NCBI GenBank assembly: GCA_028282925.1 | Contig: JANQGV010000012.1 | Location: 7,787 to 71,786 of the forward strand | Length of the DNA: 64,000 nt | Source: Thermodesulfobacteriota bacterium | GTDB lineage: Bacteria > Desulfobacterota > WTBG01 > CAIYCZ01 > CAIRTM01 | Reading direction: 5' to 3' | In this document: positions 1,000 to 32,835 of the stretch, in pieces | How the letters are laid out: each line of letters starts with the position of its first letter | Numbering within the stretch: position 1 is the stretch's first letter | Position numbers and translations under genes: made by a program | Notes under the pieces: model-generated | The model's database searches: none | What the model saw: only the letters and a program-made list of their open reading frames with translations | Told to the model about the DNA's origin: nothing

Positions 1000-1205
1000 T
1001 TCAGGTGCTCATTTCGAGCATAACAGGGAACTCCGTGTGATTCGGAGACGGGCCCGCCGCTGTAATCGGGGACGAACGCCGCAACCATGTCACTGTTTCG
1101 ATGAATCGAAATGGGAAGACGCGGCCAGTAGAATGATCCGTAAGTCAGAAGACCTACCTGGGCAGAGGACACGACCGCCGTGGCACCGGAGGTTGTCCGC
1201 ATATG
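1000..1205 (+). promoter_or_regulatory. Cobalamin (B12) riboswitch, copy 1
   Basis: Conserved cobalamin-riboswitch elements read directly: AACAGGGAA...GGTGTGATTCGGAGACGGGCCCGCCGCTGTAA, then GTCACTG...GGGAAGACGCGGCC, and the B12 box AAGTCAGAAGACCTACCTGG. It lies directly upstream of a btuF-like gene. Confidence 0.8.
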
Positions 1206-1235
1206 TATATATTAAGATTTTGAGGATAAAAAAGG

Positions 1236-1277
1236 GAAATCCCCAAATCGTCTGCTGCGATTTGGGGATTTTTTTAT
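1236..1277 (+). terminator. Rho-independent terminator, expression platform of riboswitch 1
   Basis: Hairpin ATCCCCAAATCG-tctgctg-CGATTTGGGGAT followed by TTTTTTT, 20 nt before the btuF start codon. Confidence 0.6.
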
Positions 1278-1295
1278 GCAACAAACAGTTGAGCT

Positions 1296-2210
1296 ATGAT
1301 CATGCGAACAGCTTTTTTTGTTATTACTTTGCTGGCCGGTTTGTTTTTGCTGCCGCCCGGACCTTCCACCACTCACGCCGGAACTGTACGAGACCATATG
1401 AACAGGGAGGTCATGGTTCCGGAAAATCCGCAGAGAATAGTAGCGCTGGCTCCAAGTGTTACCGAGATAGTATTTGCACTGGGCCAGGGGCACCGGCTTA
1501 AAGGGGTGACCCTCTTCAGCAATTACCCTCCATCTGCTGAAAAGCTTCCCAGGGTGGGCTCTTACGTCCATCCCGAAATTGAAAGAATTGCGGCGCTGAA
1601 GCCGGACCTGTGTATCGGCATCAGGGACGGTAACCCGGTGCAGATCGTCGGGCAACTGGATACATTACGCATCCCTCTCTATATAGTCAATCCGGTGGAC
1701 CTTGAGACGGTTATGGAATCCATTGTGCTGATCGGCACCATCCTGGATGCCCGTGCGCAGGCACAGAAGCTTGTGCAAAAAATGGCTGTCGGCATTCAGC
1801 AGGTCAAGCAGCGGACTGCAATGAGCGCCCATCGGCCGCGGGTTTTTTTTCAGATCGGTATTGCCCCCATAGTTTCGGCGGGAGCACATACTTTTATTCA
1901 TGAAATCATCAAAGCAGCAGGTGGCAAAAACTGCGCGGCGGGCCCTGCGCCCTATCCGCGTTTTTCGCGCGAAGAAGTTCTGGTTCTGGCCCCGGAGGTT
2001 ATTATTATAACTTCCATGGCCCGGGCATCATCGGAACGCTTCGATGAGGTTAAAAAGGTGTGGAGTTCATGGACGAACATACCGGCGGTGCGCAACAATC
2101 GCATACATGTCGTCGATTCAGATATCTTTGATCGTCCCGGACCCCGCATGGTTGAAGGCTTAATGGTGTTGGCGAGTCTTCTGCATCCGGAGCTATACAC
2201 TCATGACTAG
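1296..2210 (+). CDS. btuF: ABC transporter periplasmic substrate-binding protein, cobalamin/siderophore class (BtuF/FecB-like)
   Basis: Signal peptide present. Class III SBP features include LAPSVTEIVFALG and PDLCIG. Sits under a B12 riboswitch and is followed by a FecCD permease and an ATPase. Confidence 0.85.
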   Translation: MIMRTAFFVITLLAGLFLLPPGPSTTHAGTVRDHMNREVMVPENPQRIVALAPSVTEIVFALGQGHRLKGVTLFSNYPPSAEKLPRVGSYVHPEIERIAALKPDLCIGIRDGNPVQIVGQLDTLRIPLYIVNPVDLETVMESIVLIGTILDARAQAQKLVQKMAVGIQQVKQRTAMSAHRPRVFFQIGIAPIVSAGAHTFIHEIIKAAGGKNCAAGPAPYPRFSREEVLVLAPEVIIITSMARASSERFDEVKKVWSSWTNIPAVRNNRIHVVDSDIFDRPGPRMVEGLMVLASLLHPELYTHD

Positions 2211-3207
2211 TACGCCTGTGCTGAATCGCATTCTGTCCGCCTCGGTAATACTTCTAATCGTATTGCTGGCGGCCGTCTTCCTCGGGATTTCCACGGGACC
2301 CGCGGGCACCGGATTCAAAGAGGTTCTCAATTCCCTCTCAGGCAAGCAGCCGGACGACCAGTTTCTGGAGTCCGTTATATGGCGTTTGCGGTTTCCCCGG
2401 GTGCTGATGGCCGCGCTGGTGGGTGCAGCACTTTCTCTGGGAGGACTGGTGTTTCAGGCAATCCTGCGCAATCCTCTTGCCGAACCGTACATACTGGGCG
2501 TTTCCGGAGGGTCCGCCATCGGTGCCATCATCGGCATTCTGCTGGGGCTTGCGCGCTTTCCCGGCGTTAGCCTGTGTGCGTTTATAGGCAGCATGGGCAC
2601 GCTGCTGCTGGTGCTTTTCATCTCCTCCGGCCGGACAATTCTCAAAAAAGATTCCCTGTTGCTTTCGGGAGTGATAATCAACGCCTTTTGTTCCGCAGTC
2701 ATTATGTTCCTGATCTCTATGGCACAGGATTACCGGCTGCACAGCATCATGTACTGGATGATGGGGGACCTTTCGTCTGCCGACCTTTCACAAATCGGTA
2801 TCCTGGCCTGTATGGTTATTCCCTGTTTTTTATTGATTTTTCTGCTTGCCCACGCCATGAATGCCCTTCTTATGGGAGAGGATATGGCCGGATCTATGGG
2901 GATACACGTACGTGCTGTCATTGCGGGGCTGCTTGTTACAACATCATTTATGGTCAGTGTTACGGTCTGCTACTGCGGCCTGCTGGGCTTTGTGGGGCTC
3001 GTGATGCCCCATATGCTGCGGTTGCTGCTGGGCCCAGACCACAGGGTTTTGGTTCCGGCATGCCTTATAGGCGGTGGAGCCTATATGATCATTTGCGATA
3101 TGCTGGCGCGGGTTCTCCCCCGGCAGGGTGAGATGCCCTGCGGGGTCATCACCGCAATGATAGGTGCCCCGGTTTTCATTTTTCTGCTGCGGAGGGCCAG
3201 ACGGTGA
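2203..3207 (+). CDS. btuC: ABC transporter permease, FecCD family (BtuC-like)
   Basis: 334 aa, about 9-10 predicted TM helices, with the typical FecCD motifs RxPRxL and GGxxYM. Translationally coupled to flanking genes (overlaps by 8 and 4 nt). Confidence 0.9.
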   Translation: MTSTPVLNRILSASVILLIVLLAAVFLGISTGPAGTGFKEVLNSLSGKQPDDQFLESVIWRLRFPRVLMAALVGAALSLGGLVFQAILRNPLAEPYILGVSGGSAIGAIIGILLGLARFPGVSLCAFIGSMGTLLLVLFISSGRTILKKDSLLLSGVIINAFCSAVIMFLISMAQDYRLHSIMYWMMGDLSSADLSQIGILACMVIPCFLLIFLLAHAMNALLMGEDMAGSMGIHVRAVIAGLLVTTSFMVSVTVCYCGLLGFVGLVMPHMLRLLLGPDHRVLVPACLIGGGAYMIICDMLARVLPRQGEMPCGVITAMIGAPVFIFLLRRARR

Positions 3208-4007
3208 ACGCTGCCTTAACCGCTCATACTCTGAGCTATTCATTCAAAAACAACCGTGTCGTGCAGGGAGTTTCATTTACCGTTAGCGCCGGGGCGTTTT
3301 TCGTCGTTATCGGTCCCAACGGATCGGGCAAAACAACCCTTCTGAAAATGCTGTGCGGCATAGCGAAGCCTGAAACGGGCACTGTAGAAATCTTTGGGCG
3401 GAAACTGCGAGAGTATGGACGCGCTGCGCTGGCAAGAGCCGTTGCGCTGGTGCCGCAGATTATGCCGCTCAACTTTCCGTTTACCGTGCAGGAAGCGGTT
3501 TTGTTGGGCCGCACACCCCATCTGGGCCTGATAGGCCTGGAGCGTCATGCGGATCTGGAGATCGCCCGACAGGCGATGGAGTTTACCGACATTGATCATC
3601 TTTCGCAAAGGAAAATAGACCAGCTAAGCGGTGGAGAGCTGCAGCGCGTTTTCATTGCACGCGCTATCTGCCAGCAGCCGCGCATCATACTGCTTGATGA
3701 GCCCACCGCATCGCTGGATCTATCGCACCAGGTGCGCATAATGGATTTAATGGAAAAATTACGAGTCGAGCAGGGAATTACCGTTGTCCTGGTTTCTCAT
3801 GACGTGAATCTGGCTGCCATGTATGCCGATACGTTGCTGCTGCTTGAAAAGGGGCACATAGCGGGCAGCGGATCTCCTGCCGGCGTGCTTTGCCGGGAGG
3901 TCATCGAATCGGTGTACGGATGTCCGGTTGTGATCGACAAAAACCCTCTGGGACAAACACCACGAGTAACGCCGGTTCCGGCCCTATCCAGCAAAATTGG
4001 AGAATGA
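3204..4007 (+). CDS. btuD: ABC transporter ATP-binding protein (BtuD/FepC-like)
   Basis: Walker A GPNGSGKTT, signature LSGGELQRV, Walker B ILLLDEP, H-loop SHD. Confidence 0.9.
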   Translation: MNAALTAHTLSYSFKNNRVVQGVSFTVSAGAFFVVIGPNGSGKTTLLKMLCGIAKPETGTVEIFGRKLREYGRAALARAVALVPQIMPLNFPFTVQEAVLLGRTPHLGLIGLERHADLEIARQAMEFTDIDHLSQRKIDQLSGGELQRVFIARAICQQPRIILLDEPTASLDLSHQVRIMDLMEKLRVEQGITVVLVSHDVNLAAMYADTLLLLEKGHIAGSGSPAGVLCREVIESVYGCPVVIDKNPLGQTPRVTPVPALSSKIGE

Positions 4008-5517
4008 TTCTATGAGATTTTTATTACACCCCATGAACGTCCCGGCAATCATAATCTTGTGTCTGGCCTGTTTGGGCTTTGCCGGGGGGGCGACACATGC
4101 GGAGACACTCTTTGTTGTGACAACCGATTATGAATCGGGGGGGCATTCGGTTCTGGATACCCAAAGCTTTTCGGCAAGCACACACCAGGGCACGATTTTT
4201 CAGGACGCTGTTGTCCGCAGCTTCGGTGACAACGTGTATGTTGTCGAGCGCTGGCACGGTGACAATATCCTTATTTATCATAAAAACAATCTGGAAAAAC
4301 CGGTGCGCCAGTTTTCAGTCGGCAGCGGAACCAATCCCCATGACTTCCTGCTTTTGAGTGAAACCCGGGCCTATGTGACGCTTTACGAGGAGTCGGAGCT
4401 TCTTATCGTAAATCCTCAAACCGGCTTACGGACCGGCTCCATAGACCTTTCGGCCTATGCCGATGCTGACGGTATTCCGGAAATGGATCTCATGATTCGA
4501 TACGGCGATTATGTATTCGTGTCCCTTCAAAGGCTCGATCGAACCAGGATGTTTCAGCCCACGGGGACAAGTGCCGTCGTTGTTATCGATTTGCGCACGG
4601 ACACCATTGTAGACACTGACCCGCGGCAGCCGGGCACCCAGGCTATCGAGCTGACCCGCACGAATCCTGTTGATATGCAGTATGTGGCGGCGACAGGTAA
4701 AATACTGGTCGCTGAAGCCGGCAGCTACTACACTACCGACGACGGCGGGCTGGAGTTTGTGGACCCGGTTGCGCTTACAGGAGAAGGCGTCCTCATGACC
4801 GAAGCCGAGCTGGGTGGGCAAATCGGCGGGGCCTTTGGAGCCTTGACCATGACGGACAGTGACCAGGGGTATGCCATAATCATGACCGAGGACTGGCTTG
4901 AGTCCCGGGTGGTACGCTTTAATATTGAAACCCGCAGCGCCCGCGCGGTGCATGCGCCGAACTCCGGATTTGTGCATTCGGATATTCTGCTGCGTAACGA
5001 TCTACTGTATGTTTGTGATCGAACGCGGTATGCCCCGGGCATACGGATTTTCGACACCCGTAGCGACAATGAGATTACTTCCCAACCGATCGAAACAGGG
5101 CTTCCACCGTTCTGCCTGACAGCCATCGGGGCCGACGACATGCCGACAGGCGTGCCCGGTTCATCCGTACCCGACAATGATACGCAGCCTGAGGAGTCGA
5201 TGCAATTTGTGACGGCCGTTCTTTCGAACTCCGACATGCCTGTATTTACAGACGTTTTTGTTTTTAATGCCGACGGGTCGTTTGTTTTGAAAAAATTTGA
5301 GCAATACGGCAGCGGTGATTTCTATTATATAACACCGACCCTTGTTCATTTTATTTTCAATAACGGCGCCGCCGTTGATATCCAGTATATCCAGGGTACC
5401 GGAATAGTTCTTAACGGCTTGACCGACCGGCTGATTTTCGGTGCGGGCAGCTATATGATAGATTACTCAATTTTCCCGATGCTCTTTGCGGGCCGGGAAG
5501 TTATGGCCCCGCAGTAA
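3997..5517 (+). CDS. Secreted surface protein with a YncE-like beta-propeller N-domain (BtuG-like candidate) and a C-terminal domain paralogous to ORF 7725-8189. True start probably at M4012 (MRFLLHP...)
   Basis: Signal peptide IIILCLACLGFAGGATHA. Residues ~80-150 (NVYVVERWHGDN...FSVGSGTNPHDFLL...LIVNPQTGL) align with the N-terminus of ORF 13105-15219. Its position between btuFCD and a BtuB-like receptor mirrors Bacteroidetes btuG. The C-terminal ~110 aa match ORF 7725-8189. Confidence 0.6.
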   Translation: MENDSMRFLLHPMNVPAIIILCLACLGFAGGATHAETLFVVTTDYESGGHSVLDTQSFSASTHQGTIFQDAVVRSFGDNVYVVERWHGDNILIYHKNNLEKPVRQFSVGSGTNPHDFLLLSETRAYVTLYEESELLIVNPQTGLRTGSIDLSAYADADGIPEMDLMIRYGDYVFVSLQRLDRTRMFQPTGTSAVVVIDLRTDTIVDTDPRQPGTQAIELTRTNPVDMQYVAATGKILVAEAGSYYTTDDGGLEFVDPVALTGEGVLMTEAELGGQIGGAFGALTMTDSDQGYAIIMTEDWLESRVVRFNIETRSARAVHAPNSGFVHSDILLRNDLLYVCDRTRYAPGIRIFDTRSDNEITSQPIETGLPPFCLTAIGADDMPTGVPGSSVPDNDTQPEESMQFVTAVLSNSDMPVFTDVFVFNADGSFVLKKFEQYGSGDFYYITPTLVHFIFNNGAAVDIQYIQGTGIVLNGLTDRLIFGAGSYMIDYSIFPMLFAGREVMAPQ

Positions 5518-5523
5518 AGATAT

Positions 5524-7656
5524 ATGACACACTGTTTCGGAGGTACCATTGCCGTTTTGTTCCATAGAGGGTTTCTGCTGATGCTTGCCGCCTCAAGCAT
5601 AATAACACTATTTCCGCCCCGGATGTATGCGCAGGAACAGTATCGGCTCGGAGAGGTGGTCGTCAGTGCCGAACAGCATGACGGCCCGACTTCCGGATCA
5701 GCCGATGCGACCGGGTTTGCAACGGTGATTCAGGTTGATGAGTTGCCTTCGCAGGTGACCTCTCTGCCGGAGGTCCTGGATCAGGCAGTGGGTGTTACGG
5801 TAAAACAGCACGGGGGGCTGGGCAGTTTCAGCACCATTTCCATCAGGGGTTCGTCTTCTGAACAGGTTGTCATCTATCTTGACGGTATTCTGTTAAACAA
5901 GGCGGTATCGGGTGTTGTCGATCTGGCGGACATTCCTCTCGACAGCCTGGAAAAAATAGAGATATACCGCGGAACCTCTCCGGCACGGTTCGGTGGATCG
6001 GGTATCGGCGGTGTTGTTAATCTCGTTACCCGGTCCGCCAAAAAACCGTTGAGCGTCAGGGCCGGGTACTCATTCGGTTCGTTCGAAACCCACAAAGCCA
6101 ATCTGTATCTTGCCGGTTCAACCGATAGCCTGACCGGCACTCTGATATATAATCGCCTGCAAAGCGATGGTGATTTCGAGTTCAAAGATGACCGGGGAAC
6201 GGCATACAACAGATCCGACGACCGCCGGACCCACCGGCGCAACAATACGCTCACCGCCGACAATCTTATCGCCAAAGGCAGCTATGCGTTCCCCGGCGGA
6301 TTGGTGCTCAGCGCCCATACCGATATCTTCAAAAAGCACCGTGGTGTTCCGGGTATCGGCAGCTACCAGTCCCGGCAGGCGCGGCTGCGGACATTCCGGA
6401 GCCTTTCGCAGGTGAGGATGACAAAAAGAAACGCATTTACCCCGGGACTGGACGTGGAATTGAGCTGCTCCTACAGTTATCAGCGCCAGAAGTTCAGGGA
6501 TCTGAAGGATGAAATCGGCCTGGGACGCCAGAACAACACGGATGACACAAAAAACAGTACCGTCAGGCTGCTGGTATCCTATATGCCGGGGGAGATACAC
6601 TCCTTCACGCTGCTTGGTGAAATTTCCCGTGAAACCTATGAGTCCCGGGACAAGCTGGCAAGCCTTTCCGAGCCGGATTCCGGCAGTACAATCAGCTGGA
6701 TGTACGGCTTTGTCGAAAATGCACGCGATAACAACCGCCGAATAACACGCACCGATGAGCAGAAACGATATAGCTATACGATGAGCCTCGAGGATGAAAT
6801 CTATCTCTTCAACGACAGACTGCTCATATCGCCTTCCGCAAAAATCAATTACTACCAAAACGATTTTAAAGGTGCCGTACCGTTTTCCTCGGTTCCCATA
6901 GCGCCCGAGGCCGATACCGCTGAAACGCATTTGACGCGTAAACTGGGTATGGCTTTTTTCATCACAGATGGACTGAAGCTGAAGGCCAACATCGGCAAGT
7001 ATTATCGAATACCCAATTTTTACGAGCTGTTCGGCGACCGCGGTGCCGTTGTGGGCAATACGGACCTGGAGCCCGAAGACGGCCTTGTCTGGGATGTCGG
7101 CCTTACATTTACCGGAAGGCCGTTTCCTTCGATTATCAAATCCTGCACCCTGGAATACTCATATTTCTATAATGATGTCGATGATCTGATTATTTTTATC
7201 CAGAACTCACAGCGCACATCCATCGCCCAAAACATTTCCAGCGCTCAAGTCAAGGGACATGAGTTTTTCTGGCGCATCCGGTTTTGCCGGCCCATACTGA
7301 TTTCCGGCAACCTTACCATTCAGGACACCCGCGACCGGAGCCGTACTGCCTACTGGCGCAACAACAGGCTGCCGGGCCGCCCGAAATATGAGCTGTTCAA
7401 CCGTGTTGAGGTTTTTTCGGAACATTTCCGACTGTTTCATGAAATTGAATTCATTGATGAGAGCTGGCTTGACCGGGCCAATATAAAAAAGATCGACCGG
7501 CGAACATTTCAAAATGCAGGCATTTCCTGGAGCCCGGTCAAACAGATTGTATTCACATTTGAGGTGAAAAACATCACCGACCGACACAGTGAAGATGTTA
7601 TCGGATACCCCCTGCCGGGGCGAACGTTTTTCGGGACACTGGATGTGTTTTATTAA
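5524..7656 (+). CDS. btuB: TonB-dependent outer-membrane receptor (BtuB-like). True start probably near 5581 (MLAASSIITLF...)
   Basis: Signal peptide, TonB box GEVVVSAE, plug-domain motifs (IRGSSSEQV, IEIYRGTS, SGIGGVVNLVT), and a long beta-barrel with a C-terminal aromatic residue. Confidence 0.85.
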   Translation: MTHCFGGTIAVLFHRGFLLMLAASSIITLFPPRMYAQEQYRLGEVVVSAEQHDGPTSGSADATGFATVIQVDELPSQVTSLPEVLDQAVGVTVKQHGGLGSFSTISIRGSSSEQVVIYLDGILLNKAVSGVVDLADIPLDSLEKIEIYRGTSPARFGGSGIGGVVNLVTRSAKKPLSVRAGYSFGSFETHKANLYLAGSTDSLTGTLIYNRLQSDGDFEFKDDRGTAYNRSDDRRTHRRNNTLTADNLIAKGSYAFPGGLVLSAHTDIFKKHRGVPGIGSYQSRQARLRTFRSLSQVRMTKRNAFTPGLDVELSCSYSYQRQKFRDLKDEIGLGRQNNTDDTKNSTVRLLVSYMPGEIHSFTLLGEISRETYESRDKLASLSEPDSGSTISWMYGFVENARDNNRRITRTDEQKRYSYTMSLEDEIYLFNDRLLISPSAKINYYQNDFKGAVPFSSVPIAPEADTAETHLTRKLGMAFFITDGLKLKANIGKYYRIPNFYELFGDRGAVVGNTDLEPEDGLVWDVGLTFTGRPFPSIIKSCTLEYSYFYNDVDDLIIFIQNSQRTSIAQNISSAQVKGHEFFWRIRFCRPILISGNLTIQDTRDRSRTAYWRNNRLPGRPKYELFNRVEVFSEHFRLFHEIEFIDESWLDRANIKKIDRRTFQNAGISWSPVKQIVFTFEVKNITDRHSEDVIGYPLPGRTFFGTLDVFY

Positions 7657-7724
7657 AATGCATGTTTACTGTTATACAACGTGAACAGTAGCGCCTGCGG
7701 GAAGCTCTGTATATAAGGACAGCC

Positions 7725-8189
7725 ATGAAATATAGTATTTTTTCAGTATGTGTAGCGGTACTTATTATGTGCCCCGGCATGAAGACCGCCCGGGCGGAAT
7801 TGTTTCAGTGCGTGCAGGGAAAAGAGTTCCATATCACGGGTTTTTCAACCGGAGCCATCCCGGTTTTTACCGAAGTGCTCGTTTTTGGCGAAGACGGTAC
7901 GTTTATCATGAAAAAAATGGAGGCCTATGGTGACGGCCGGTACTACGAATTCCGGGCCGGTATTTTTTATTTTATATTTACAAACCGGTCCGGTATAGAC
8001 GTGCAGTACGCCGAAGGCTATGGGCTGTCGCTGCTGTCCGTCGCAGGCCAGGTGATACTCGGTGCGGGAAGTTTCATGATCGATTATACGCTTGAACCGC
8101 TGATATATATCGGGCTGGAGGTGTTTGGCCCGGAGGCCATGGGGACACAAAGCGAAAGAGAGGTGGTGGGCGATGCAGCAAAAAACTGA
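7725..8189 (+). CDS. Small secreted protein of unknown function, paralogous to the C-terminal domain of ORF 3997-5517
   Basis: Signal peptide (SVCVAVLIMCPGMKTARA). VFTEVLVFGEDGTFIMKKMEAYGDGRYYEF...IDVQYAEGYGL...ILGAGSFMIDYTLEP aligns with VFTDVFVFNADGSFVLKKFEQYGSGDFYYI...VDIQYIQGTGI...IFGAGSYMIDYSIFP of the 506-aa protein. Confidence 0.6.
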   Translation: MKYSIFSVCVAVLIMCPGMKTARAELFQCVQGKEFHITGFSTGAIPVFTEVLVFGEDGTFIMKKMEAYGDGRYYEFRAGIFYFIFTNRSGIDVQYAEGYGLSLLSVAGQVILGAGSFMIDYTLEPLIYIGLEVFGPEAMGTQSEREVVGDAAKN

Positions 8190-8865: not shown

Positions 8866-8958
8866 AAATATCACGTAGCAGTTTTAGCGTTCATTGCATT
8901 CAATGCCGTACGGCAAAAGAAGACATTTTTAAGAACGTTTCCCTTGGAGGGAGTTATT

Positions 8959-10707: not shown

Positions 10708-10849
10708 CACAGCGCCGCATATAACTTTAGTTGTATGTGAAAAACACACCCTACGTTATATTGACGGCGGGATGCAGGGTGTGAGATACTACAGAAGTAA
10801 TAAAAAGCATATAACCGGGTGCCTTACCGGAAGGATCTTGCGATACTGA

Positions 10850-11045: not shown

Positions 11046-11093
11046 TCGGCTTTCGTGGACTAAAGCCTGCCGGGAAACAATCGGGATGAAAAC

Positions 11094-12991: not shown

Positions 12992-13104
12992 TGTATTCAT
13001 AACTATAATTATCAACAAACGAAAGGGGGTGATAGTACTGAAAAGAAACAACCGGTTTTTTTTACTTCCAATAACTCATGTACAGATAAAGGAGATACAT
13101 CACT

Positions 13105-26486: not shown

Positions 26487-26525
26487 TAAAAAATCCCCGG
26501 GACGACATGCAGTCGTCCCGGGGAT
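26487..26525 (-). terminator. Rho-independent terminator, expression platform of riboswitch 3 (hairpin flanked by A-run and T-run)
   Basis: ATCCCCGGGACGAC-atgc-AGTCGTCCCGGGGAT with a T-run downstream on the minus strand, between the aptamer and the receptor start codon. Confidence 0.55.
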
Positions 26526-26589
26526 TCCGTTTTTTATCCACGGTCTGGTATTACATGTCCCTGTTTCCCGAGGGCATGTAACGCTTTTT

Positions 26590-26780
26590 ATCCATACAGG
26601 CAGGTCTTCTGGCTTCCCTGCCCTCTGGCCGCCTTCCCATTCCGACACATCGGAACAGTGGCATGCCAGGCCAAAGGGTTCCCTTTTCTACATCAATAGA
26701 CAAGGGTTGGGTTACAGCGGCGGGTCCGCGACGGTTTTGCACCGGCTTCCCTATTAAGCCACACTGTGGCGCCTGTATTT
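26590..26780 (-). promoter_or_regulatory. Cobalamin riboswitch, copy 3 (minus strand)
   Basis: The reverse complement reads AATAGGGAAGCCGGTGCAAAACCGTCGCGGACCCGCCGCTGTAACC ... ATGCCACTGTTCCGATG ... GGGAAGGCGGCC ... GGAAGCCAGAAGACCTGCCTG. Near-identical in core to copy 2. Confidence 0.8.
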
Positions 26781-26851
26781 AATTGTATGTGCCGGGAGCG
26801 CGTGCTCTCCGGTGTAAACACAGCCGTTTATAAAAGGCTATGTGTTTTTTT

Positions 26852-28774
26852 TTAATCCTGCAGCCGATCACGTACGGCGCTTTCTATAGATGTCGCTTCT
26901 ATGTGCGACAGTTTGACATATTCAGCCTGGGAGGCTTCGGCCAGCTTTTTTGCCAGGCCCAGGGAAAGAAAATCATCCTCGGCATCAAGGACAACAAGCC
27001 GAATGCCGGCAAGGGTGAGCTGCCTGGCAAAATCCACGGCCTCGTCAAACGGAGTCGTTTCTGTCCGTGCATAGGGCACATTGGCCTTCCCGTCGCTGAG
27101 GAGCGCAATCATTATTTCAACGTCCGGGTCGCGCTGCCGGATTTGATGAGCCAGTTCCAGCCCACCTGCAAGGCCGTGAGCAAGCGGTGTTCTTCCGCCG
27201 GTGGGCAGTTCTTTGAGGTGTTCATGGGCCAGGTCGACATTGTCGGTCGGCTGAAGCAGCACCTCATGCCGGTCGTCGCGAAAAGCGAGCAATGCCACGC
27301 GGTTGCGCTTGACGTAGGCGTCCTGAAGCAGGGCAAGGGCCGCCCCTTTGGCGGCTGCCATCCGTTCAGATGCGGCCATGCTGCCGCTGGCGTCAACTGC
27401 AAGAATAACCGTGGTTCCCGCGGACTGGGTACGCTGTTTTGCTCTGATGTGGTCGGGCCGTATATGGACGACATCATTGGACGCACAGTCCATCTGGTCC
27501 GGAGCTGCGGCCCGCAGGGTGGCATCAAGGGCGATGTCGCTGCTGGAAACAGGCCCATGGGGCTCTACGGCGCGTGCTGCGCGGCCACGTCGTCCCGGTG
27601 CCGTGGTTTTTGTGCGTTTACCGCTTGATGATGCATGCTTTGGGCGTGCCTCAGTTGCAGAAAGGGTGACATCAGGCGTTTGCCCGATCTCAAATGTTCG
27701 GTCCGGGGGTGCTTCCTGCTGCAGATCGTCGGGAGCGTTTTCGGACTGCTGCTCTTGATTTTTTTCAGGCTGCTGCAGCGCGTCGTCGATTTTGTCCGGG
27801 TCGAGGCGGCTCTCTTCAAACGGCCGCCTCCGCATACGATGTGAAATCGACATCAAGGCAGCCTTTTTGATGTCATCCTCGGATACCTGTTCTCTGCCGT
27901 CAAAGGCGGCCAGGGTCAGGGCGGCACGTGTCATTACAATATCGGCCCGGTGCGAACGCACATCCAGCTCAATGCAGATTCGGGCAGCAAGCTGTATAAG
28001 TTCTTCGCTGATGGTCACCCGGGGGAGCAGCGTGCAGGCGGCACGTATATCCCGGGCGAGGTTTTGCTGCTGCTGTTGAAAACGGTCGGCAAACGCAGCA
28101 GGATCGTTTTCCCAGGCTATGCGGTTCCTGACAATCTCGGTGCGCTCGCCGATATCCATAAGAGCCCCGGCGTCAACACACAGCGAAAACCGGTCAAGGA
28201 GCTGTGGCCGCAGGTCGCCTTCTTCAGGATTCATGGTGCCGATCAGCAGGAAGCGGGCAGGGTGGGTAAAACTCAACCCCTCGCGCTCAACTGTGTTAAC
28301 CCCCATGGCCGCCGCATCAAGCAGCAGGTCCACGATATGATCGTCAAGCAGGTTCACCTCATCGATATACAGGATGCCCCGGTGTGCCGCGGCAAGCACG
28401 CCGGGTTCAAAACGGCGTTTACCGTGTTTCAGAGCATACTCTACATCGAGGGTTCCGGCCACCCGGTCCTCGGTGGCATTGGCCGGTAGCGTTATCACCG
28501 GCATAGGGCGCATTGCCGGGCGGATTTCACCGGTCGCCGAGCAATGAGGACATTCGGGCATGGGGCTGTCCGGGCTGCAGTTGAACGGGCAGCCTTCTGC
28601 TGTCTCAATTTCCGGGAGCAACTCGGCCAGCGCACGGGCCAGAGTGGATTTTGCGGTACCCTTTTCGCCCCGGATCAACACCCCGCCGATAGCGGGATTG
28701 ATTGCATTTAGAATCAGGGCCTCTTTCATCTGCGGTTGCCCTGTAATGGCGGTAAAAGGATACTGAGTCGTCAT
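26852..28774 (-). CDS. Class I chelatase ATPase/vWA subunit: Mg-chelatase ChlI-like AAA+ domain fused to a ChlD-like vWA domain
   Basis: Walker A GEKGTAKST, AAA+ box GILYIDEVNLL, Ser/Pro/acidic linker, C-terminal vWA with the MIDAS motif in ILAVDASGSM. Overlaps cobN by 4 nt. Confidence 0.85.
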   Translation of the reverse strand: MTTQYPFTAITGQPQMKEALILNAINPAIGGVLIRGEKGTAKSTLARALAELLPEIETAEGCPFNCSPDSPMPECPHCSATGEIRPAMRPMPVITLPANATEDRVAGTLDVEYALKHGKRRFEPGVLAAAHRGILYIDEVNLLDDHIVDLLLDAAAMGVNTVEREGLSFTHPARFLLIGTMNPEEGDLRPQLLDRFSLCVDAGALMDIGERTEIVRNRIAWENDPAAFADRFQQQQQNLARDIRAACTLLPRVTISEELIQLAARICIELDVRSHRADIVMTRAALTLAAFDGREQVSEDDIKKAALMSISHRMRRRPFEESRLDPDKIDDALQQPEKNQEQQSENAPDDLQQEAPPDRTFEIGQTPDVTLSATEARPKHASSSGKRTKTTAPGRRGRAARAVEPHGPVSSSDIALDATLRAAAPDQMDCASNDVVHIRPDHIRAKQRTQSAGTTVILAVDASGSMAASERMAAAKGAALALLQDAYVKRNRVALLAFRDDRHEVLLQPTDNVDLAHEHLKELPTGGRTPLAHGLAGGLELAHQIRQRDPDVEIMIALLSDGKANVPYARTETTPFDEAVDFARQLTLAGIRLVVLDAEDDFLSLGLAKKLAEASQAEYVKLSHIEATSIESAVRDRLQD

Positions 28775-31700
28775 GGATGTAATCCCTCCAGGTCGGTTTC
28801 CAGACCCATGTAGATTTCTTTCAGCCGTTCAATTGTTTCTTCATCGGGCTTCCAGTAGCCGCGGCTGTTTGCTTCCCAGAGGCGTTTGACGATTTCCAGC
28901 ATAGCATAGGGGTTGTTGCCCTTGATGCGCTCGCGCATGGCATCGTCAAAAACAAGGCGGCGGTTTACCTGGTCGAAGTTTTCCTGGCTGACCGCGCCGG
29001 TCGTAGCTGCAAGCCCGATCAGGTTTTCCATTCGTTTGGCAATTTCCTGGCCGCCATGATGGCTGTGAGAAAGCATGCCGTCAAGCCACGCCGGGTTGGT
29101 CAGCCGGGTATGTACGCCCCGGCTGATGGAATCTTTTACGTCTTCGGTGCGCACCCGGCCCTCATGGGTGTCGGAAATAACCATCATTGCTTTTTTGCCT
29201 GAGGCCTGTTCCACGCTGCACGCAAGACCTCCGAAAAATTCGTAATAATGGTCAAGGTCGGTCACTTCGTAGTCCCGGGAAGCTCGGACCTGACTGACGA
29301 CCTCCACCCGGCTGAGGTTGTCGGTTAGAAGGCCGACCATCTCCTTGCCGTAGTGGTTCGGCGTATAGGCATGCTTAAGGCTCTCGATATAGGCCCCGAC
29401 AAGATCGGTCTCTTCCTGCCAGGTGCGTTTTTTAACAATTTGCTCAACCCCGGTGCCGTACTCCGATGCGGCCGGACCAAAAAGCCGTGCAAGGGCAAAC
29501 TCCCGGGCTTCCGGTTCCGACATACCGCGCTCCCGCAGGCCGTTAAAGAGTAATCGTGCATTGGCTCGTACGCTGTTCATGTCATCGGGCTCGTCGGCAA
29601 AACCGGCCAGCTCAAAAGCCTTTTGTAAAAGCGAAAGGGTGCCCGGAAACATGTCGCGGAAGAAACCGCACATCTGGATTGTTACGTCAATCCGCGGGCG
29701 GCCCAGCTCTTCAAGGGGAATCAGCTCAAGCCGGGGCTCCCACTGTCCGTCGATGCTTTTTACGCGCACGCCCAGGCAGGTCAAAATTTGCCCGATGGTT
29801 TCTCCCTGTGTTTGGGAGGTTTCCAGCCCCCAGAGAATAAGGGCAGTGGTGCCGGGGTATCTCCCATGGTCTTCCCGGTAGCGGGCAAGGGTGTTTTCCG
29901 CAATAGCCGCACCGCTCTCAAGGGCCGAAGGGGAAGGTACATTCCGGGGGTCAAACTGTACAAGGTTGCGGCCCGAAGGCAGTATTTCAGGGCTGCGAAA
30001 AAGGTCTCCGCTGAGCCCGGGAGGAATATACCGGCCACTGAGGCAGCGCAGAACAGCATCGAGCTCGCCGTTATATGCCAGGGCCTTGGCGATTGCATCA
30101 CCACGGCGGATGTAGTCTTTGAAGTAATCACAGTCGGCAGAGTCGCTCTTGTCAAGCGGCAGACCGTGGATGATGTGGTCGGCTATCCACTGCCGCACCA
30201 TGGCATTCAGCCGTTCCCATTGCGTGGTATGACGATGCGGCTCGCTGCTGAGGATTTTCCAGTCGAAGCCCCGGTGATGTGCCAGAAGCTCAGGGAGTGC
30301 CGGGGCGCCGTTGGTGCTGTGACGGAAAATCTCCGTCAGGTAGCCGACGATTTCCTCCTCGCCGTACCCGCTCCCCAGGGTGTGCAGGCGCGATGGAATG
30401 AGCGCAGTATCAAGCTCGTGCAGGCGCTGGTGCACCGCGTCCAGACCGGACCATTCCCAGCCAAGGTCCATGGTCCGGGACTGAATATCCTCGAGGATAA
30501 CCGGGCAGCGGCCCGGGCTGAGGTTTTCGGCTTCGGCATGCTCGTCAAGCAGTTGGCGGAGGGTCAGCAGGTCGTCATACAGGGCGCCTTTTACAAACGG
30601 GGGCGGCAGGTGCCCTATCAAAACAGCATGGGAGCGCCTCTTGGCTATCATGGCCTCGGATGGGTTGCCGGTGTAATACAGGTACAGATGCGGTAGATCG
30701 TTGATCAGGGCATCCGGAAAGCAGTCTCTGGATGCGGCCTTTTCTTTGCCGGGTAGAAATTCAAGGGTCCCGTGGGTGCCGACATGCACCACCGCGTCGG
30801 CACGAAACTCACGTTCGATCCAGCGATAGAATACGGCATACTGATGGTGGGGCGGCACGGACTTGTCGTGGTATGCATTGTTGCCTGAATCCATGGTTTC
30901 ACGGGCAGGCTGCAGGCCGATAAAAACATTGCCGTTTACGATTCCCGGCAGAACAACTGCTTCGCCGCTGTTCATAACGGTACCTGGAAACGGCCCCCAT
31001 GACTGTTCGATGCGGTCGAGTACGGTCAGGTCCGCAGTCAGCTTCCGGTATGCGTTTTTATCAACGGTGATATGGTTGTCCCTGTTTCGGTTGTTCCAGG
31101 TCGTCGAATTGTTCGTGCCTCCGCCGACAAAGACATCTCTGAGCTCTTCAGCGCTCATGGGAGACGCGGTGTAACCTGCATCTGCAAGCTTTTCAAGTAG
31201 AGCGGAGATGGAGGCAAAGGTATCGAGAAACGATGCGCTGCCCACGGTTGCCTCGCCGGAGGGGTAGTTATAGAAGACAACGGCAAGCCTCTTGTCGCTG
31301 TTGGGCCGGTTTCGGAGGACGGCCCAGTTTTGCGAACGGTGTGCCAGCCTTTCAATGCGGTCGTCAATGGGCGCAAGCTCGGGGGTCTGGTCCTGGGGGG
31401 TGCCCACCGCGCCGAGGGGATACATCTCGACGGCACCGTCGAGCTCGGGCAGGAAAATCGAGATCAGAAATTCGCCGACGTCGGCCCCCTTGTTGTCTTG
31501 CAGCCATTGGGTGCAGGTGCGTTTGGTGAGAAAAAAGGGGTGGAGCACCGGCACGTTCAGGTCGCGCAGAAACCGCTCGCCCTGAACGGCATCACCGCCC
31601 ATGGGGCCCTGTGCCAGCCTGAACGATTCGGGATTGACCAGCACGTCGATAAGGGGCTTGCCGTCGGGCATCAGGAGCTTATACAATTTACTGAAATCGC

Positions 31701-32520
31701 GGCCCACCGTGCTGTCCATGGCTATGGGAATAACGTTAAACCCCGGGGAGAGCCGCTCCATAACACGGCTGATAACCGGGTGGGTGTCCAGGGGGTAGGT
31801 GCGCGAACGAAAAAAAAGGCCCAGGCCGGGTTTGGTTTCCTCAGGCGGGAAACTTTCGTGGTAGTGACTGATGCTTTTGAAAATTCTGCCGCTTGCCGGA
31901 TCCATTATTGAGCAGTCATCTATCACGGCAGGCGGCTTCGGTTTGGGGAAATCCTTGTAACCGAAATATTCGCGCCCGATGAGGTACAGCATGTTTTCAA
32001 TATTGATCCGGGTGCCGTACAGCCAGTATTTGCTGATCCAGAGGAAATTGCGCATGTCCCGCAGGGGACCGACCGGAATCGCCCGCCCGACTTTTTCCAT
32101 CCACTCGACCATTTTCATCATGCGGGCAGGATCACGAGGAGCTTTTTTTTCGGAATCGTCTTTTTTGTCCACGTCCATGCGGCGCATCATATTGAGAGAA
32201 AAGCCGCCCAGCCTGGTGAGGGAACGCACGGCGACCGAGGTTGCGTTGACCACCACAACGTGACCCTTGAAGTCCGCAATACCTTCTGCCAGGGCGTTGC
32301 CGAATGCATCGGGAACGCCCATGGTATCCAGCAATACAAGATCGCTCTGGTAGAGGCTCTGGAAAATGGCCGGCCAGGTTTCCTCGCTGAGAAAATCGCT
32401 GCCCACATAGTGGGTGCTCACCTCGCAACGGCCCGCCCAGGGTCCATCGGCCCATGTGCGGCAGCTTTTTTCGATTTCAATAATGGAGGATGCGCCGACG
32501 GCGATTATACAGAGTTTCAT
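28771..32520 (-). CDS. cobN: CobN/Mg-chelatase H-family large chelatase subunit (cobaltochelatase CobN-like)
   Basis: 1249 aa, a size typical of the family, with CobN/ChlH-wide conservation (NPSEAMIAKRR, HGTLEFLPGK). Riboswitch 4 and a terminator lie upstream. Confidence 0.85.
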   Translation of the reverse strand: MKLCIIAVGASSIIEIEKSCRTWADGPWAGRCEVSTHYVGSDFLSEETWPAIFQSLYQSDLVLLDTMGVPDAFGNALAEGIADFKGHVVVVNATSVAVRSLTRLGGFSLNMMRRMDVDKKDDSEKKAPRDPARMMKMVEWMEKVGRAIPVGPLRDMRNFLWISKYWLYGTRINIENMLYLIGREYFGYKDFPKPKPPAVIDDCSIMDPASGRIFKSISHYHESFPPEETKPGLGLFFRSRTYPLDTHPVISRVMERLSPGFNVIPIAMDSTVGRDFSKLYKLLMPDGKPLIDVLVNPESFRLAQGPMGGDAVQGERFLRDLNVPVLHPFFLTKRTCTQWLQDNKGADVGEFLISIFLPELDGAVEMYPLGAVGTPQDQTPELAPIDDRIERLAHRSQNWAVLRNRPNSDKRLAVVFYNYPSGEATVGSASFLDTFASISALLEKLADAGYTASPMSAEELRDVFVGGGTNNSTTWNNRNRDNHITVDKNAYRKLTADLTVLDRIEQSWGPFPGTVMNSGEAVVLPGIVNGNVFIGLQPARETMDSGNNAYHDKSVPPHHQYAVFYRWIEREFRADAVVHVGTHGTLEFLPGKEKAASRDCFPDALINDLPHLYLYYTGNPSEAMIAKRRSHAVLIGHLPPPFVKGALYDDLLTLRQLLDEHAEAENLSPGRCPVILEDIQSRTMDLGWEWSGLDAVHQRLHELDTALIPSRLHTLGSGYGEEEIVGYLTEIFRHSTNGAPALPELLAHHRGFDWKILSSEPHRHTTQWERLNAMVRQWIADHIIHGLPLDKSDSADCDYFKDYIRRGDAIAKALAYNGELDAVLRCLSGRYIPPGLSGDLFRSPEILPSGRNLVQFDPRNVPSPSALESGAAIAENTLARYREDHGRYPGTTALILWGLETSQTQGETIGQILTCLGVRVKSIDGQWEPRLELIPLEELGRPRIDVTIQMCGFFRDMFPGTLSLLQKAFELAGFADEPDDMNSVRANARLLFNGLRERGMSEPEAREFALARLFGPAASEYGTGVEQIVKKRTWQEETDLVGAYIESLKHAYTPNHYGKEMVGLLTDNLSRVEVVSQVRASRDYEVTDLDHYYEFFGGLACSVEQASGKKAMMVISDTHEGRVRTEDVKDSISRGVHTRLTNPAWLDGMLSHSHHGGQEIAKRMENLIGLAATTGAVSQENFDQVNRRLVFDDAMRERIKGNNPYAMLEIVKRLWEANSRGYWKPDEETIERLKEIYMGLETDLEGLHP

Positions 32521-32583
32521 ATTGCTATTATGGTGCGTGTGTTTTTCAATAACTCAATGTATGTCGGAGAATGCAGCAAAAAA

Positions 32584-32625
32584 AATCCCCAAATCGAGTG
32601 CGATTTGGGGATATCCCTTTTTTTA
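32584..32625 (-). terminator. Rho-independent terminator, expression platform of riboswitch 4. The stem is identical to the riboswitch-1 terminator stem
   Basis: ATCCCCAAATCG-agtg-CGATTTGGGGAT flanked by A/T runs. The same 12-nt arms occur at 1243-1275. Confidence 0.55.
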
Positions 32626-32689
32626 TCCTCAAAACTGTGTATTTATTCCGGAATACCACTTTGCCATGTCGGTACGCCGATAAACTATT

Positions 32690-32835
32690 CAAGCAGGTCT
32701 TCTGACTTTCGGATCATCCTAGTTACCGCGCCTTCCCATTCCGGTGAGCCGGAACAGTGGCTTCGCTACGGTTTTCGTCCCCGATTACAGCGGCGGGCCC
32801 GTACCCGAATTTCACGGGATTCCCTTTAACGCTTT
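32690..32835 (-). promoter_or_regulatory. Cobalamin riboswitch, copy 4 (minus strand), paralogue of copy 1
   Basis: The reverse complement contains ACGGGCCCGCCGCTGTAATCGGGGACGAA (29 nt identical to copy 1), GCCACTG...GGGAAGGCGCGG, and B12 box AAGTCAGAAGACCTGC. Confidence 0.8.

What the first reader, a model, noticed from the sequence alone, without database searches (positions are those of the whole stretch)
1000..32835. Four cobalamin riboswitches within 32 kb, forming two paralogous pairs with matching terminator stems
All four aptamers show the B12 box and the conserved GCCACTG / GGGAAGG / CCGCCGCTGTAA elements. Copies 1 and 4 share a 29-nt identical core (ACGGGCCCGCCGCTGTAATCGGGGACGAA) and an identical terminator stem (ATCCCCAAATCG...CGATTTGGGGAT). 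Copies 2 and 3 are likewise near-identical (GGTGCAAA(T/A)CCGT(T/C)GCGGACCCGCCGCTGTAACC), each with its own GC-rich terminator. This points to recent duplication of whole riboswitch-plus-terminator cassettes onto different operons (uptake, surface proteins, a second receptor, chelatase). All four appear to act by transcription attenuation.
Basis: seen in the sequence. Interest (0 to 1): 0.6.

Follow-up and report, generated by a model that had tools for sequence, protein, structure and literature searches.

The report
Four ordinary vitamin B12 riboswitches
Four genuine vitamin-B12-sensing RNA switches sit in front of four groups of B12 capture, uptake and salvage genes; this is a normal arrangement, and the look-alike pairs reflect two old switch designs also found in other bacteria, not recent copying.

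Summary
Rfam RF00174 finds exactly four full-length cobalamin riboswitches (85-109 bits): RS1 986-1175(+), RS2 10800-11044(+), RS3 26791-26582(-), RS4 32863-32675(-). Each is followed by a strong intrinsic terminator before the first gene. The quoted shared strings and stems are all present.

The "recent duplication" reading is not supported. Aptamers are only 73% (RS1/RS4) and 77% (RS2/RS3) identical. RS1 and RS4 are as close to Desulfobulbus propionicus riboswitches (up to 77%) and to a metagenome sequence as to each other. The "identical 29-mer" recurs there with two substitutions. The controlled genes are not duplicates.

Each leader has three hairpins: a P13-like hairpin whose loop complements L5, a weak antiterminator hairpin (GGAU, A-rich loop with GGG/CGG, AUCC) that shares a strand with the terminator, and the terminator. 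This module occurs only at the four riboswitches in the window. It recurs in about 20 relatives, including three D. propionicus riboswitches listed among reporters that corrinoids repress.

Most likely these are B12-OFF transcription attenuators. How ligand binding defeats the antiterminator is unresolved. Ordinary biology; a new member of a known kind.

The parts
963..991 (+). RS1 promoter-like site: -35 TTGACT, 17-nt spacer, -10 TACAGT. It lies inside the 13-nt box ATCTTGACTTTTC (960-972), which is shared only with RS4.
986..1175 (+). RS1 cobalamin riboswitch aptamer (RF00174, 109.3 bits); L5 = GCCCG
1167..1198 (+). RS1 hairpin H1, the P13 candidate. Loop GUGGCAC (1180-1186) is complementary to L5.
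1214..1250 (+). RS1 hairpin H2, the antiterminator: arm A 1214-1227, A-rich loop AAAAAAGGGAA 1228-1238, T5 1239-1250. It is mutually exclusive with the terminator.
1239..1275 (+). RS1 intrinsic terminator: 12-13 bp stem (1239-1250 with 1258-1269) and a U-tract to 1275; -19.6 kcal/mol
1296..10707 (+). Genes after RS1: BtuF-like binding protein 1296-2210, FecCD permease 2203-3207, ABC ATPase 3204-4007, BtuG-like 506-aa protein 3997-5517, B12-type TonB-dependent receptor 5524-7656, small ORF, LuxR-type regulator, ExbB 8944-9585, ExbD 9530-9994, TonB 9991-10707. The extent of the operon is not shown.
10761..10790 (+). RS2 promoter-like site: TTGACG, 18-nt spacer, TG-extended GATACT
10800..11044 (+). 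RS2 cobalamin riboswitch aptamer (84.8 bits); L5 = ACCCG; long insertions in P2 and in the P6 extension
11048..11067 (+). RS2 hairpin H1 (P13): GGCUUU-CGUGGACU-AAAGCC
11074..11135 (+). RS2 H2 (only a 5-bp GGGAU:AUCCC helix, loop GAAAACGGA) and terminator (stem 11094-11127, -19.9 kcal/mol; interrupted U-tract UUCUUUUAUUUU). This is the weakest match to the module model (18.3 bits).
11153..15219 (+). Genes after RS2: a 612-aa secreted protein (SdrD_B-like N-terminus, weak LIC_13355-like C-terminus) 11153-12991, and a 704-aa protein 13105-15219 whose N-terminus is paralogous to the BtuG-like 506-aa protein. The two share an unclassified C-terminal domain.
32864..32891 (-). RS4 promoter-like site: TTGACT, 16-nt spacer, TG-extended TAAAGT, with the shared 13-nt box
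32675..32863 (-). RS4 cobalamin riboswitch aptamer (100.4 bits); L5 = GCCCG
32639..32685 (-). RS4 hairpin H1 (P13), loop AUGGCAAA (32667-32660)
32578..32638 (-). RS4 H2 (arm A 32638-32625, loop 32624-32613, T5 32612-32601) and terminator (T3 32596-32585, U-tract to 32578; -17.7 kcal/mol)
26852..32520 (-). Genes after RS4: CobN/BchH-class large chelatase subunit 28771-32520, and a fused ChlI/ChlD-type 'putative cobaltochelatase' 26852-28774
26582..26791 (-). RS3 cobalamin riboswitch aptamer (92.5 bits); L5 = ACCCG. It begins 60 nt after the ChlI/D stop codon and no consensus promoter was found.
26550..26582 (-). RS3 hairpin H1 (P13). Loop CGGGAAAC (26570-26563) is fully complementary to L5 CCCG.
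26488..26549 (-). RS3 H2 (arm A 26549-26536, loop 26535-26526, T5 26525-26512) and terminator (T3 26506-26493, U-tract to 26488; -30.0 kcal/mol)
24415..26454 (-). Gene after RS3: TonB-dependent receptor (heme/B12-receptor-like, 679 aa from ATG ~26454, RBS AAGGAG)

Best explanation
The window carries four separate class-I (AdoCbl-type, with the P6 peripheral extension) cobalamin riboswitches. Each heads its own transcription unit for corrinoid capture, uptake or salvage. The most likely mechanism is as follows. When a corrinoid occupies the aptamer, loop L5 ((G/A)CCCG) kisses the loop of a P13-like hairpin (H1) placed right after P1. A perfect 12-14 bp terminator followed by a U-tract then forms, and transcription stops before the first gene (OFF). 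Without ligand, a weaker hairpin H2 holds the terminator's 5' arm. H2 consists of arm A ending in GGAU, an A-rich loop with a GGG/CGG run, and AUCC plus the rest of the terminator's 5' arm. While H2 holds that arm, the polymerase reads through. Shown here: aptamer identity, the terminators, the existence and mutual exclusivity of H2, and the P13 stem. Inferred: the OFF sign (from gene content and from homologous D. propionicus riboswitches that repress a reporter) and the kissing loop. Not resolved: how P13 docking destabilises H2. The two look-alike pairs are two old subtypes. Type A (RS1, RS4) is Desulfobulbus-like and type B is RS2 and RS3. Both also occur in other organisms, so they are not recent intragenomic copies.
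For: Aptamers: four full-length RF00174 hits of 85-109 bits and nothing else. Terminators: -17.7 to -30 kcal/mol with U-tracts, lying between the aptamer and the start codon, with ribosome-binding sites outside the hairpins. The three-hairpin layout is found in 14 and then 20 related cassettes. All relatives checked are RF00174 hits. RNAalifold recovers the H1 stem with compensatory pairs. An alignment-free swap screen recovers H1 and the terminator (p=0) and the A:T5 helix (p=0.004; 0.005 and exact 0.004; n=20 gives p=0.002, and 8 independent T5 types give p=0.027). A covariance model of arm A + loop + terminator hits only the four riboswitch platforms in the 64-kb window (76, 62, 45 and 18 bits). 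OFF sign: the controlled genes are BtuF/C/D, BtuB-like receptors, ExbBD-TonB and CobN-ChlID, and relatives control receptors, BtuC, CobQ, CobU and CobT. D. propionicus cbiZ-cobN, exbB and mutA-1 riboswitches have the same module. They are in the list of 38 wild-type reporters, the same number the paper says repressed GFP with corrinoids (PMC9600662). Old subtypes: identity matrices and NJ tree, segment identities, the 29-mer present in other organisms, receptors only 21% identical.
Against: No expression data exist for this locus. The D. propionicus evidence is heterologous (B. subtilis), and I inferred membership of the functional set from matching counts; I did not see fold-change values. 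The link between ligand binding and loss of H2 has no support. P13-3':T5 pairing (the P. megaterium metE design), P13-3':A pairing, and a small second P13 formed by arm A with the G-run all fail the swap test (p>0.08). H1 is stable on its own (-6.5 to -15 kcal/mol), so its formation cannot be the switch. H2 is weak (-4.6 to -11 kcal/mol), and its first, unconstrained test was not significant (p=0.11). RS2 lacks the outer H2 helix and has an interrupted U-tract. The H2 loop's G-run is itself complementary to L5 and tracks the L5 variant (GCCCG with GGG, ACCCG with CGG). That is what an activating design would look like.
Confidence: 0.8

Rival explanations
1. One reading: the pairs arose by recent duplication of whole riboswitch-plus-terminator cassettes onto different operons within this genome.
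For: The pairs cluster. RS1 and RS4 share a 13-nt promoter box found nowhere else in the window or in the fetched loci. Their terminator arms are 12/12 identical, and the H2+terminator module is 87% identical.
Against: Aptamers are 72.6% and 77.4% identical, and P13 regions 58-61%. Three of the four have closer relatives in other organisms than their in-window partner. RS2 and RS3 have different terminators and unrelated upstream DNA. The 29-mer occurs in D. propionicus and in metagenome sequences with 1-3 substitutions. The downstream genes are not paralogous in the same pairing.
Confidence: 0.07
2. A narrower version: RS1 and RS4 are anciently diverged, but their promoter box and H2/terminator module have been homogenised by gene conversion, or one module was recently swapped in.
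For: Identity is mosaic: promoter block 16/18, aptamer 74%, P13 region 61%, H2+terminator 87%, with only the terminator loop differing. The box is unique to these two sites.
Against: The module is also strongly conserved between organisms (AUCCCC...GGGGAU; GGAUAAAAAAGGGA is identical in L036, L098, L125 and D. propionicus cbiZ). Purifying selection alone could therefore explain most of the identity. The tracts are too short for a conversion test.
Confidence: 0.25
3. The switches are activating (B12-ON). H2 would be the real P13, its G-run would kiss L5 when ligand is bound, and because H2 shares a strand with the terminator, ligand would cause read-through, as in the A. halodurans cobT riboswitch.
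For: H2 and the terminator are mutually exclusive. The H2 loop carries GGG/CGG complementary to L5, and this tracks the L5 variant. RS1 and RS4 have the same L5 (GCCCG) as the activating riboswitch (PMC10327014).
Against: A separate hairpin, canonical in position and loop, with a covarying stem, sits directly after P1. All controlled genes are of the B12-repressed kind. Three D. propionicus riboswitches with the same module are in the repressing set.
Confidence: 0.05
4. Control is mainly translational (ribosome-binding-site sequestration), and the hairpins are incidental.
For: RS1 and RS4 have weak Shine-Dalgarno sequences. Many cobalamin riboswitches, for example those of Bacteroidota and Chlorobi, act on translation (PMC8620254).
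Against: In all four, the stem and U-tract end 18-57 nt upstream of the start codon, and no ribosome-binding site lies within P13, H2 or the terminator. The module is a textbook intrinsic terminator.
Confidence: 0.05

Closest known systems
Rfam RF00174 cobalamin riboswitch, class I / AdoCbl type with the P6 peripheral extension
   Same: All four match the full 189-position model at 85-109 bits. They have the B12 box, the (G/A)CCCG L5 loop and a P13-like hairpin after P1.
   Different: Nothing essential differs. RS2 and RS3 carry lineage-typical insertions in P2 and in the P6 extension.
Desulfobulbus propionicus DSM 2032 riboswitches cbiZ(-cobN), exbB(-exbD) and mutA-1 (Kennedy et al. 2022, PMC9600662, Table S1B)
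   Same: Aptamers are 71-77% identical to RS1 and RS4. They have the same P13 loop type (CGUGGAC), the same GGAU/A-rich/GGG/AUCC hairpin and an AUCCC(C)GGAUC-type terminator. One of them controls a cobN operon and one an exbBD operon, and there are several copies per genome.
   Different: They come from a different organism, and the distal terminator stem sequences differ. RS2 and RS3 are a different aptamer subtype (55-60% identity).
Priestia megaterium metE repressing corrinoid riboswitch (Procknow et al. 2023, PMC10327014)
   Same: The L5-L13 kissing loop, a P13 separate from the terminator, and mutually exclusive antiterminator and terminator, giving OFF with corrinoid.
   Different: There the antiterminator is made by the 3' side of P13 pairing with the terminator's 5' arm. 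Here that pairing has no support, and a dedicated arm A between P13 and the terminator does the job.
Alkalihalobacillus halodurans cobT activating corrinoid riboswitch (PMC10327014)
   Same: A hairpin with an L5-complementary loop shares its 3' strand with the terminator's 5' arm. L5 is GCCCG, and UGGC appears in a loop (RS1 and RS4 H1).
   Different: Here an additional canonical P13 precedes that hairpin, and both gene content and homologues indicate repression.
Multi-riboswitch B12 uptake loci: Bacteroides thetaiotaomicron btuB1-3/btuG loci (PMC10404256), Desulfuromonas with four B12 elements (PMC545781), Ca. Chlorobium antarcticum with nine (PMC8620254)
   Same: Several cobalamin riboswitches per genome, each heading a transporter, receptor, surface-binder or chelatase unit. 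BtuG-like propellers sit next to BtuB-like receptors, and cobN/bchHID-like genes lie nearby.
   Different: Those in Bacteroidota and Chlorobi are mostly translational, while these are terminator-based. The BtuG resemblance here is only weak at the sequence level.

Membership tests
RF00174 cobalamin riboswitch aptamer | Covariance-model score at or above the curated gathering score (31.5 bits) over the full model | tested here: met
   109.3, 100.4, 92.5 and 84.8 bits, model positions 1-189 of 189
RF00174 cobalamin riboswitch aptamer | B12 box and conserved core strings (GCCACUG, GGGAAG, AGYCAGAAGACCUGCC) | tested here: met
   Seen in all four in the cmscan alignments and the raw sequence
RF00174 cobalamin riboswitch aptamer | L5 loop NCCCG with a complementary L13 loop on a hairpin 3' of P1 (kissing loop) | tested here: met
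   L5 is GCCCG (RS1, RS4) or ACCCG (RS2, RS3). H1 loops are UGGC, UGGC, CG(U)GG and CGGG. The H1 stem covaries. This shows complementarity only; the tertiary contact itself is not testable here.
RF00174 cobalamin riboswitch aptamer | Direct binding of a corrinoid | not testable with these tools
   Needs in-line probing, ITC or reporter assays
Repressing, terminator-type corrinoid expression platform | Intrinsic terminator (GC-rich hairpin plus U-tract) between the aptamer and the start codon | tested here: met
   Stems of 11-14 bp, -17.7 to -30 kcal/mol, with 6-8 U. RS2's tract is interrupted.
Repressing, terminator-type corrinoid expression platform | An alternative helix that sequesters a terminator arm (antiterminator) | tested here: met
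   H2 shares T5 with the terminator. Cognate versus swapped arms give p=0.002 (n=20) and p=0.027 (8 T5 types). The first, unconstrained test was not significant.
Repressing, terminator-type corrinoid expression platform | P. megaterium metE design: the antiterminator is made from the 3' side of P13 | tested here: not met
   H1-3':T5 and H1-3':A show no cognate preference (p>0.1). It therefore works like this class, but not by this particular wiring.
Repressing, terminator-type corrinoid expression platform | Lower expression when corrinoid is present | not testable with these tools
   Indirect only: D. propionicus riboswitches with the same module are in the repressing reporter set.
Activating corrinoid riboswitch (A. 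halodurans cobT type) | The hairpin that carries L13 shares a strand with the terminator | tested here: inconclusive
   H2 shares the strand and has an L5-complementary G-run, but a separate canonical P13 (H1) is present.
Recent intragenomic duplicates | Near-identity throughout, including unconstrained positions, with the partner as nearest relative | tested here: not met
   72.6% and 77.4% in the aptamer and 58-61% in the P13 region. Closer relatives exist in other organisms for RS1, RS4 and RS3.
BtuG surface B12-binding beta-propeller (for the 506-aa and 704-aa proteins) | Sequence or structural similarity to BtuG, and a position next to BtuB under B12 control | tested here: inconclusive
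   The only PDB matches of the 506-aa protein are nine BtuG2/BtuG3 entries, but at E~1e-3 over about 90 residues. The 704-aa N-terminus is paralogous (E 3e-14). The context fits. No structure prediction was run.

The most novel reading that the evidence does not exclude
The conserved middle hairpin may be more than a passive antiterminator. Arm A (G-N-GGAU followed by A's) copies the canonical L13 motif, the terminator's 5' arm (AUCCCC) copies L5, and the loop's G-run tracks the L5 variant. The switch could therefore work by competition between two kissing partners or mimics for L5. That would be a coupling logic not yet described for cobalamin riboswitches. It would also explain why this module is far more conserved than the aptamer between RS1 and RS4.
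Probability: 0.15. Interest if true: 0.55.

Novelty: new member of a known kind. Interest (0 to 1): 0.25.

Why it matters
As a finding it mainly serves annotation. It defines a B12 regulon of four transcription units in an unidentified bacterium. That bacterium uses B12 (MetH is present), and no other cobalamin-biosynthesis gene was identified among the ORFs scanned, so it appears to invest in scavenging. The regulon also flags three uncharacterised secreted proteins (506, 612 and 704 aa) as candidate corrinoid-capture proteins outside Bacteroidota. For riboswitch specialists, the useful by-product is a recurrent, sequence-conserved expression-platform module (P13, GGAU/A-rich/GGG/AUCC hairpin, terminator). 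Experimentally repressing examples exist in D. propionicus, but the module's internal wiring does not follow the one dissected repressing model.

Tried and rejected
Identifying the organism or orthologous loci failed:
- Exact-protein look-ups for the BtuF-like and CobN proteins found nothing.
- The 612-aa protein is on a single anonymous 7.5-kb Logan contig.
- The one genome-collection scan, run with CobN, returned only distant relatives (59% or less, Chloroflexota and Bacillota). No sister-genome comparison was therefore possible.

Wirings tested for the ligand-to-terminator relay and rejected for lack of support:
- P13-3' side pairing with T5 (the P. megaterium design), P13-3' with arm A, and P13 with T3.
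- A small second P13 formed by arm A's 5' part with the loop G-run (p 0.08-0.12).
- T5 pairing with the aptamer segment AAUCGGGGAC. It is attractive in RS1, RS4 and type-A relatives, but that segment is absent from RS2 and RS3, so it is not general.

Methods that did not work or gave weak results:
- The first H2 swap test, with free folding, was not significant (p=0.11), because loop G-runs paired with T5 in the chimeras.
- RNAalifold on a MAFFT alignment did not recover H2, because loop indels shift the register.
- Counting 12-mer terminator-arm matches with two or more mismatches across loci is uninformative, since such matches occur at chance level.

Other dead ends:
- Vitreschak et al. 2003 could not be read.
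- The C-terminal domain shared by the 612-aa and 704-aa proteins matches no Pfam family, DUF4465 included, even at E<=5.

Full report
**Observation.** A scan of the whole 64-kb window against Rfam 15 returns exactly four matches, at the curated threshold and at E<=1. All four are RF00174 (cobalamin riboswitch) and all are full-length.

| Copy | Coordinates | Strand | Bits |
|---|---|---|---|
| RS1 | 986-1175 | + | 109.3 |
| RS2 | 10800-11044 | + | 84.8 |
| RS3 | 26791-26582 | - | 92.5 |
| RS4 | 32863-32675 | - | 100.4 |

The gathering score is 31.5 bits. E-values run from 1e-19 to 1e-26.
- the 29-nt core common to RS1 and RS4;
- the identical terminator arms ATCCCCAAATCG/CGATTTGGGGAT;
- the near-identical 34-nt core of RS2 and RS3;
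- a separate GC-rich terminator for each of RS2 and RS3.

The terminator scans list these four hairpins as the strongest in their regions. Folding gives -17.7 to -30.0 kcal/mol.

**What the switches control.**
- RS1 precedes a BtuF-like binding protein, a FecCD permease, an ABC ATPase, a 506-aa protein, a B12-type TonB-dependent receptor, a LuxR-type regulator and ExbB-ExbD-TonB.
- RS2 precedes two secreted proteins of 612 and 704 aa with almost no family assignment.
- RS4 precedes a CobN/BchH-class large chelatase subunit and a fused ChlI/ChlD 'putative cobaltochelatase'.
- RS3 lies 60 nt after that operon and precedes a second TonB-dependent receptor. Its real start is the ATG near 26454, behind an AAGGAG ribosome-binding site, not the GTG at 26541 in the ORF list.
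- A B12-dependent methionine synthase lies between the RS2 and RS3 units.

Promoter-like sites place the transcription start at the foot of P1 for RS1, RS2 and RS4. None was found for RS3.

**Are the pairs recent duplicates?** The pairs are real as similarity groups, but they are not recent.

| Segment | RS1 vs RS4 | RS2 vs RS3 |
|---|---|---|
| Aptamer, P1 to P1 | 72.6% | 77.4% |
| Upstream / promoter | 66% | 55% |
| Aptamer | 74% | 77% |
| P13 region | 61% | 58% |
| H2 + terminator | 87% | 70% |

Cross-pair aptamer identity is 58-60%.

A probe for a stem peculiar to these aptamers fetched 115 related riboswitches from metagenomes. Among them, and among four riboswitches of Desulfobulbus propionicus taken from a published table, closer relatives exist:
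- RS1 is closer to D. propionicus exbB (76.9%) and to metagenome L079 than to RS4.
- RS4 is closer to D. propionicus mutA-1 (73.7%) and to L079 than to RS1.
- RS3 is closer to L139 and L036 than to RS2.

The 29-mer occurs with one to three substitutions in L079, L099 and L064, and with two in D. propionicus exbB and mutA-1. The two receptors are only 21% identical, and RS1 and RS4 head unrelated genes. The pairs are therefore two old subtypes shared with other organisms.

One thing remains unusual. RS1 and RS4 share a 13-nt promoter box found nowhere else in the window or in any fetched locus. Their antiterminator/terminator module is also far more alike than their aptamers. This fits common cassette ancestry with strong constraint on the module, or gene conversion. 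I cannot separate the two.

**Anatomy of the expression platform.** The four-way alignment shows a motif invariant in all four copies just 5' of the terminator: GGAT, A's, GG, A, TCCC. Comparison with relatives resolves three consecutive hairpins after P1.
- H1 sits where P13 sits in all cobalamin riboswitches. It carries loops of the canonical L13 kind: CG(U)GGA, CGGG, or UGGC in RS1 and RS4. These are complementary to L5, which is GCCCG in RS1 and RS4 and ACCCG in RS2 and RS3.
- H2 consists of an arm A ending in GGAU, a 9-12-nt A-rich loop with a GGG or CGG run, and the terminator's 5' arm T5, which begins AUCC.
- The terminator follows.

H2 and the terminator cannot coexist.

Tests of these helices:
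- RNAalifold recovers the H1 stem with compensatory changes.
- Loop indels spoil column-based counting for H2, so I used an alignment-free test. Each arm A was folded with its own T5 or with another member's T5. Unconstrained, this was not significant (p=0.11).
- With the loop held single-stranded, it was significant (p=0.005; exact p=0.004 with one representative per T5 type).
- A screen of all segment pairs recovered the two positive controls and A:T5 (p=0.004), and nothing else.
- With 20 instances taken from a terminator-fitted covariance-model alignment, the result held (p=0.002; p=0.027 for eight T5 types). Clear compensations include UUAAGGAU/AUCCUUAA and UGAGGAU/AUCCUCA.
- The module model hits only the four riboswitch platforms in the window, so it is not a generic terminator of this genome.
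- The same model finds two riboswitch cassettes with this module 3.5 kb apart on contig L040.

**Sign and mechanism.** A genetic dissection of corrinoid riboswitches (PMC10327014) gives a rule. In a repressing switch, P13 is separate from the terminator. In the one known activating switch, the hairpin carrying L13 shares a strand with the terminator. Here both features are present, so the sign needed evidence.

Three things point to OFF:
- A canonical P13 is present and separate from the terminator.
- Every controlled gene, here and in relatives, is of the B12-repressed kind: receptors, BtuC, CobQ, CobU, CobT.
- Three D. propionicus riboswitches with the same three hairpins (cbiZ-cobN, exbB-exbD, mutA-1) are in the table of 38 wild-type reporters. 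That is the number the authors say repressed GFP in response to corrinoids (PMC9600662).

I did not see the fold changes, and the host was B. subtilis.

The step I could not establish is how ligand-dependent docking of P13 removes H2. The P. megaterium wiring (P13-3' side pairing with T5) has no support here. Neither does a second small P13 built from arm A.

Three features are unexplained:
- Arm A resembles the L13 motif.
- T5 resembles L5.
- The H2-loop G-run follows the L5 variant: GGG with GCCCG in eight cases, CGG with ACCCG in three. These cases are not phylogenetically independent.

**Comparison with what is known.** Several cobalamin riboswitches per genome, each heading a transport, receptor or chelatase unit, have been described since 2003-2004.
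- Desulfuromonas has four B12 elements, three of them before transport loci (PMC545781).
- Ca. Chlorobium antarcticum has nine, with cobN/bchHID nearby (PMC8620254).
- Bacteroides thetaiotaomicron has three riboswitch-controlled btuB-btuG loci (PMC10404256).

The present locus is a further example. The nearest characterised riboswitches are those of D. propionicus, which hints at a Desulfobulbales-like source, but this is not shown.

**Verdict.** This is a correct observation of an ordinary feature. Interest is low to moderate. The only part a specialist might pursue is the conserved middle hairpin and its unresolved coupling.

Noticed in passing
window 3997-5517 (+) and 13105-15219 (+): The 506-aa protein between the ABC ATPase and the BtuB-like receptor matches, in the whole PDB, only nine BtuG2/BtuG3 entries (Bacteroides surface B12-capture propellers), at E~1e-3 over about 90 residues. 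The N-terminal ~300 aa of the RS2-controlled 704-aa protein is paralogous to it (26% identity, E 3e-14). These are possible BtuG-like corrinoid binders in a bacterium whose promoter-like sites are of the sigma-70 type.
   Followed up: partly
window 11153-12991 (+) residues ~436-610, and 13105-15219 (+) residues ~430-590: The two RS2-controlled proteins share a C-terminal domain of about 180 aa (32% identity, E 2e-8; motifs GPD..V(F/Y)EN and GGFDLDAV). It matches no Pfam family, and only weakly the NCBIfam 'LIC_13355 family lipoprotein'. It is an uncharacterised domain under B12 control.
   Followed up: partly
window 26792-26852 (-): RS3 starts 60 nt after the ChlI/D stop codon, and no consensus sigma-70 promoter was found there. 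There is only a well-placed TACAAT, with TTTACA 25 nt upstream and an imperfect palindrome CCGGAGAGCACGCGCTCCCGG between them. The receptor gene may therefore be reached by read-through from RS4, which would put two riboswitches in series.
   Followed up: partly
window 960-972 (+) and 32894-32882 (-): The 13-nt box ATCTTGACTTTTC, which contains the -35 hexamer, occurs only at the RS1 and RS4 promoters. It appears nowhere else in the window or in 144 fetched loci, even allowing one mismatch.
   Followed up: yes
window 16006-19084 (-): The B12-dependent methionine synthase appears split. An 837-aa protein carries the homocysteine-binding, pterin-binding and B12-binding domains. A separate, overlapping 224-aa ORF matches the activation domain. 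ThyX follows at 19166-19900. None of these has a riboswitch.
   Followed up: no
window 28771-32520 (-): The riboswitch-controlled large chelatase subunit scores above the curated cut-off of the BchH (magnesium chelatase H) model (850 vs 829 bits), higher than against any CobN model. No photosynthesis gene was seen among the ORFs scanned in the window. B12 control argues for a cobalt/corrinoid role.
   Followed up: no
L040 617-903 (-) and 4088-4358 (-): A 266-kb metagenome contig carries two RF00174 riboswitches 3.5 kb apart on the same strand, each followed by the same arm A/A-rich loop/terminator module. Clustering of cassettes with this module therefore recurs in another organism.
   Followed up: partly
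RS1-RS4 platforms, metagenome relatives and D. propionicus riboswitches: The G-run in the H2 loop follows the L5 variant: L5 GCCCG goes with GGG (RS1, RS4, L036, L098, L109, and D. propionicus cbiZ, exbB and mutA-1), and L5 ACCCG goes with CGG (RS2, RS3, L047). The cases are not phylogenetically independent, and I have no explanation that fits OFF logic.
   Followed up: partly
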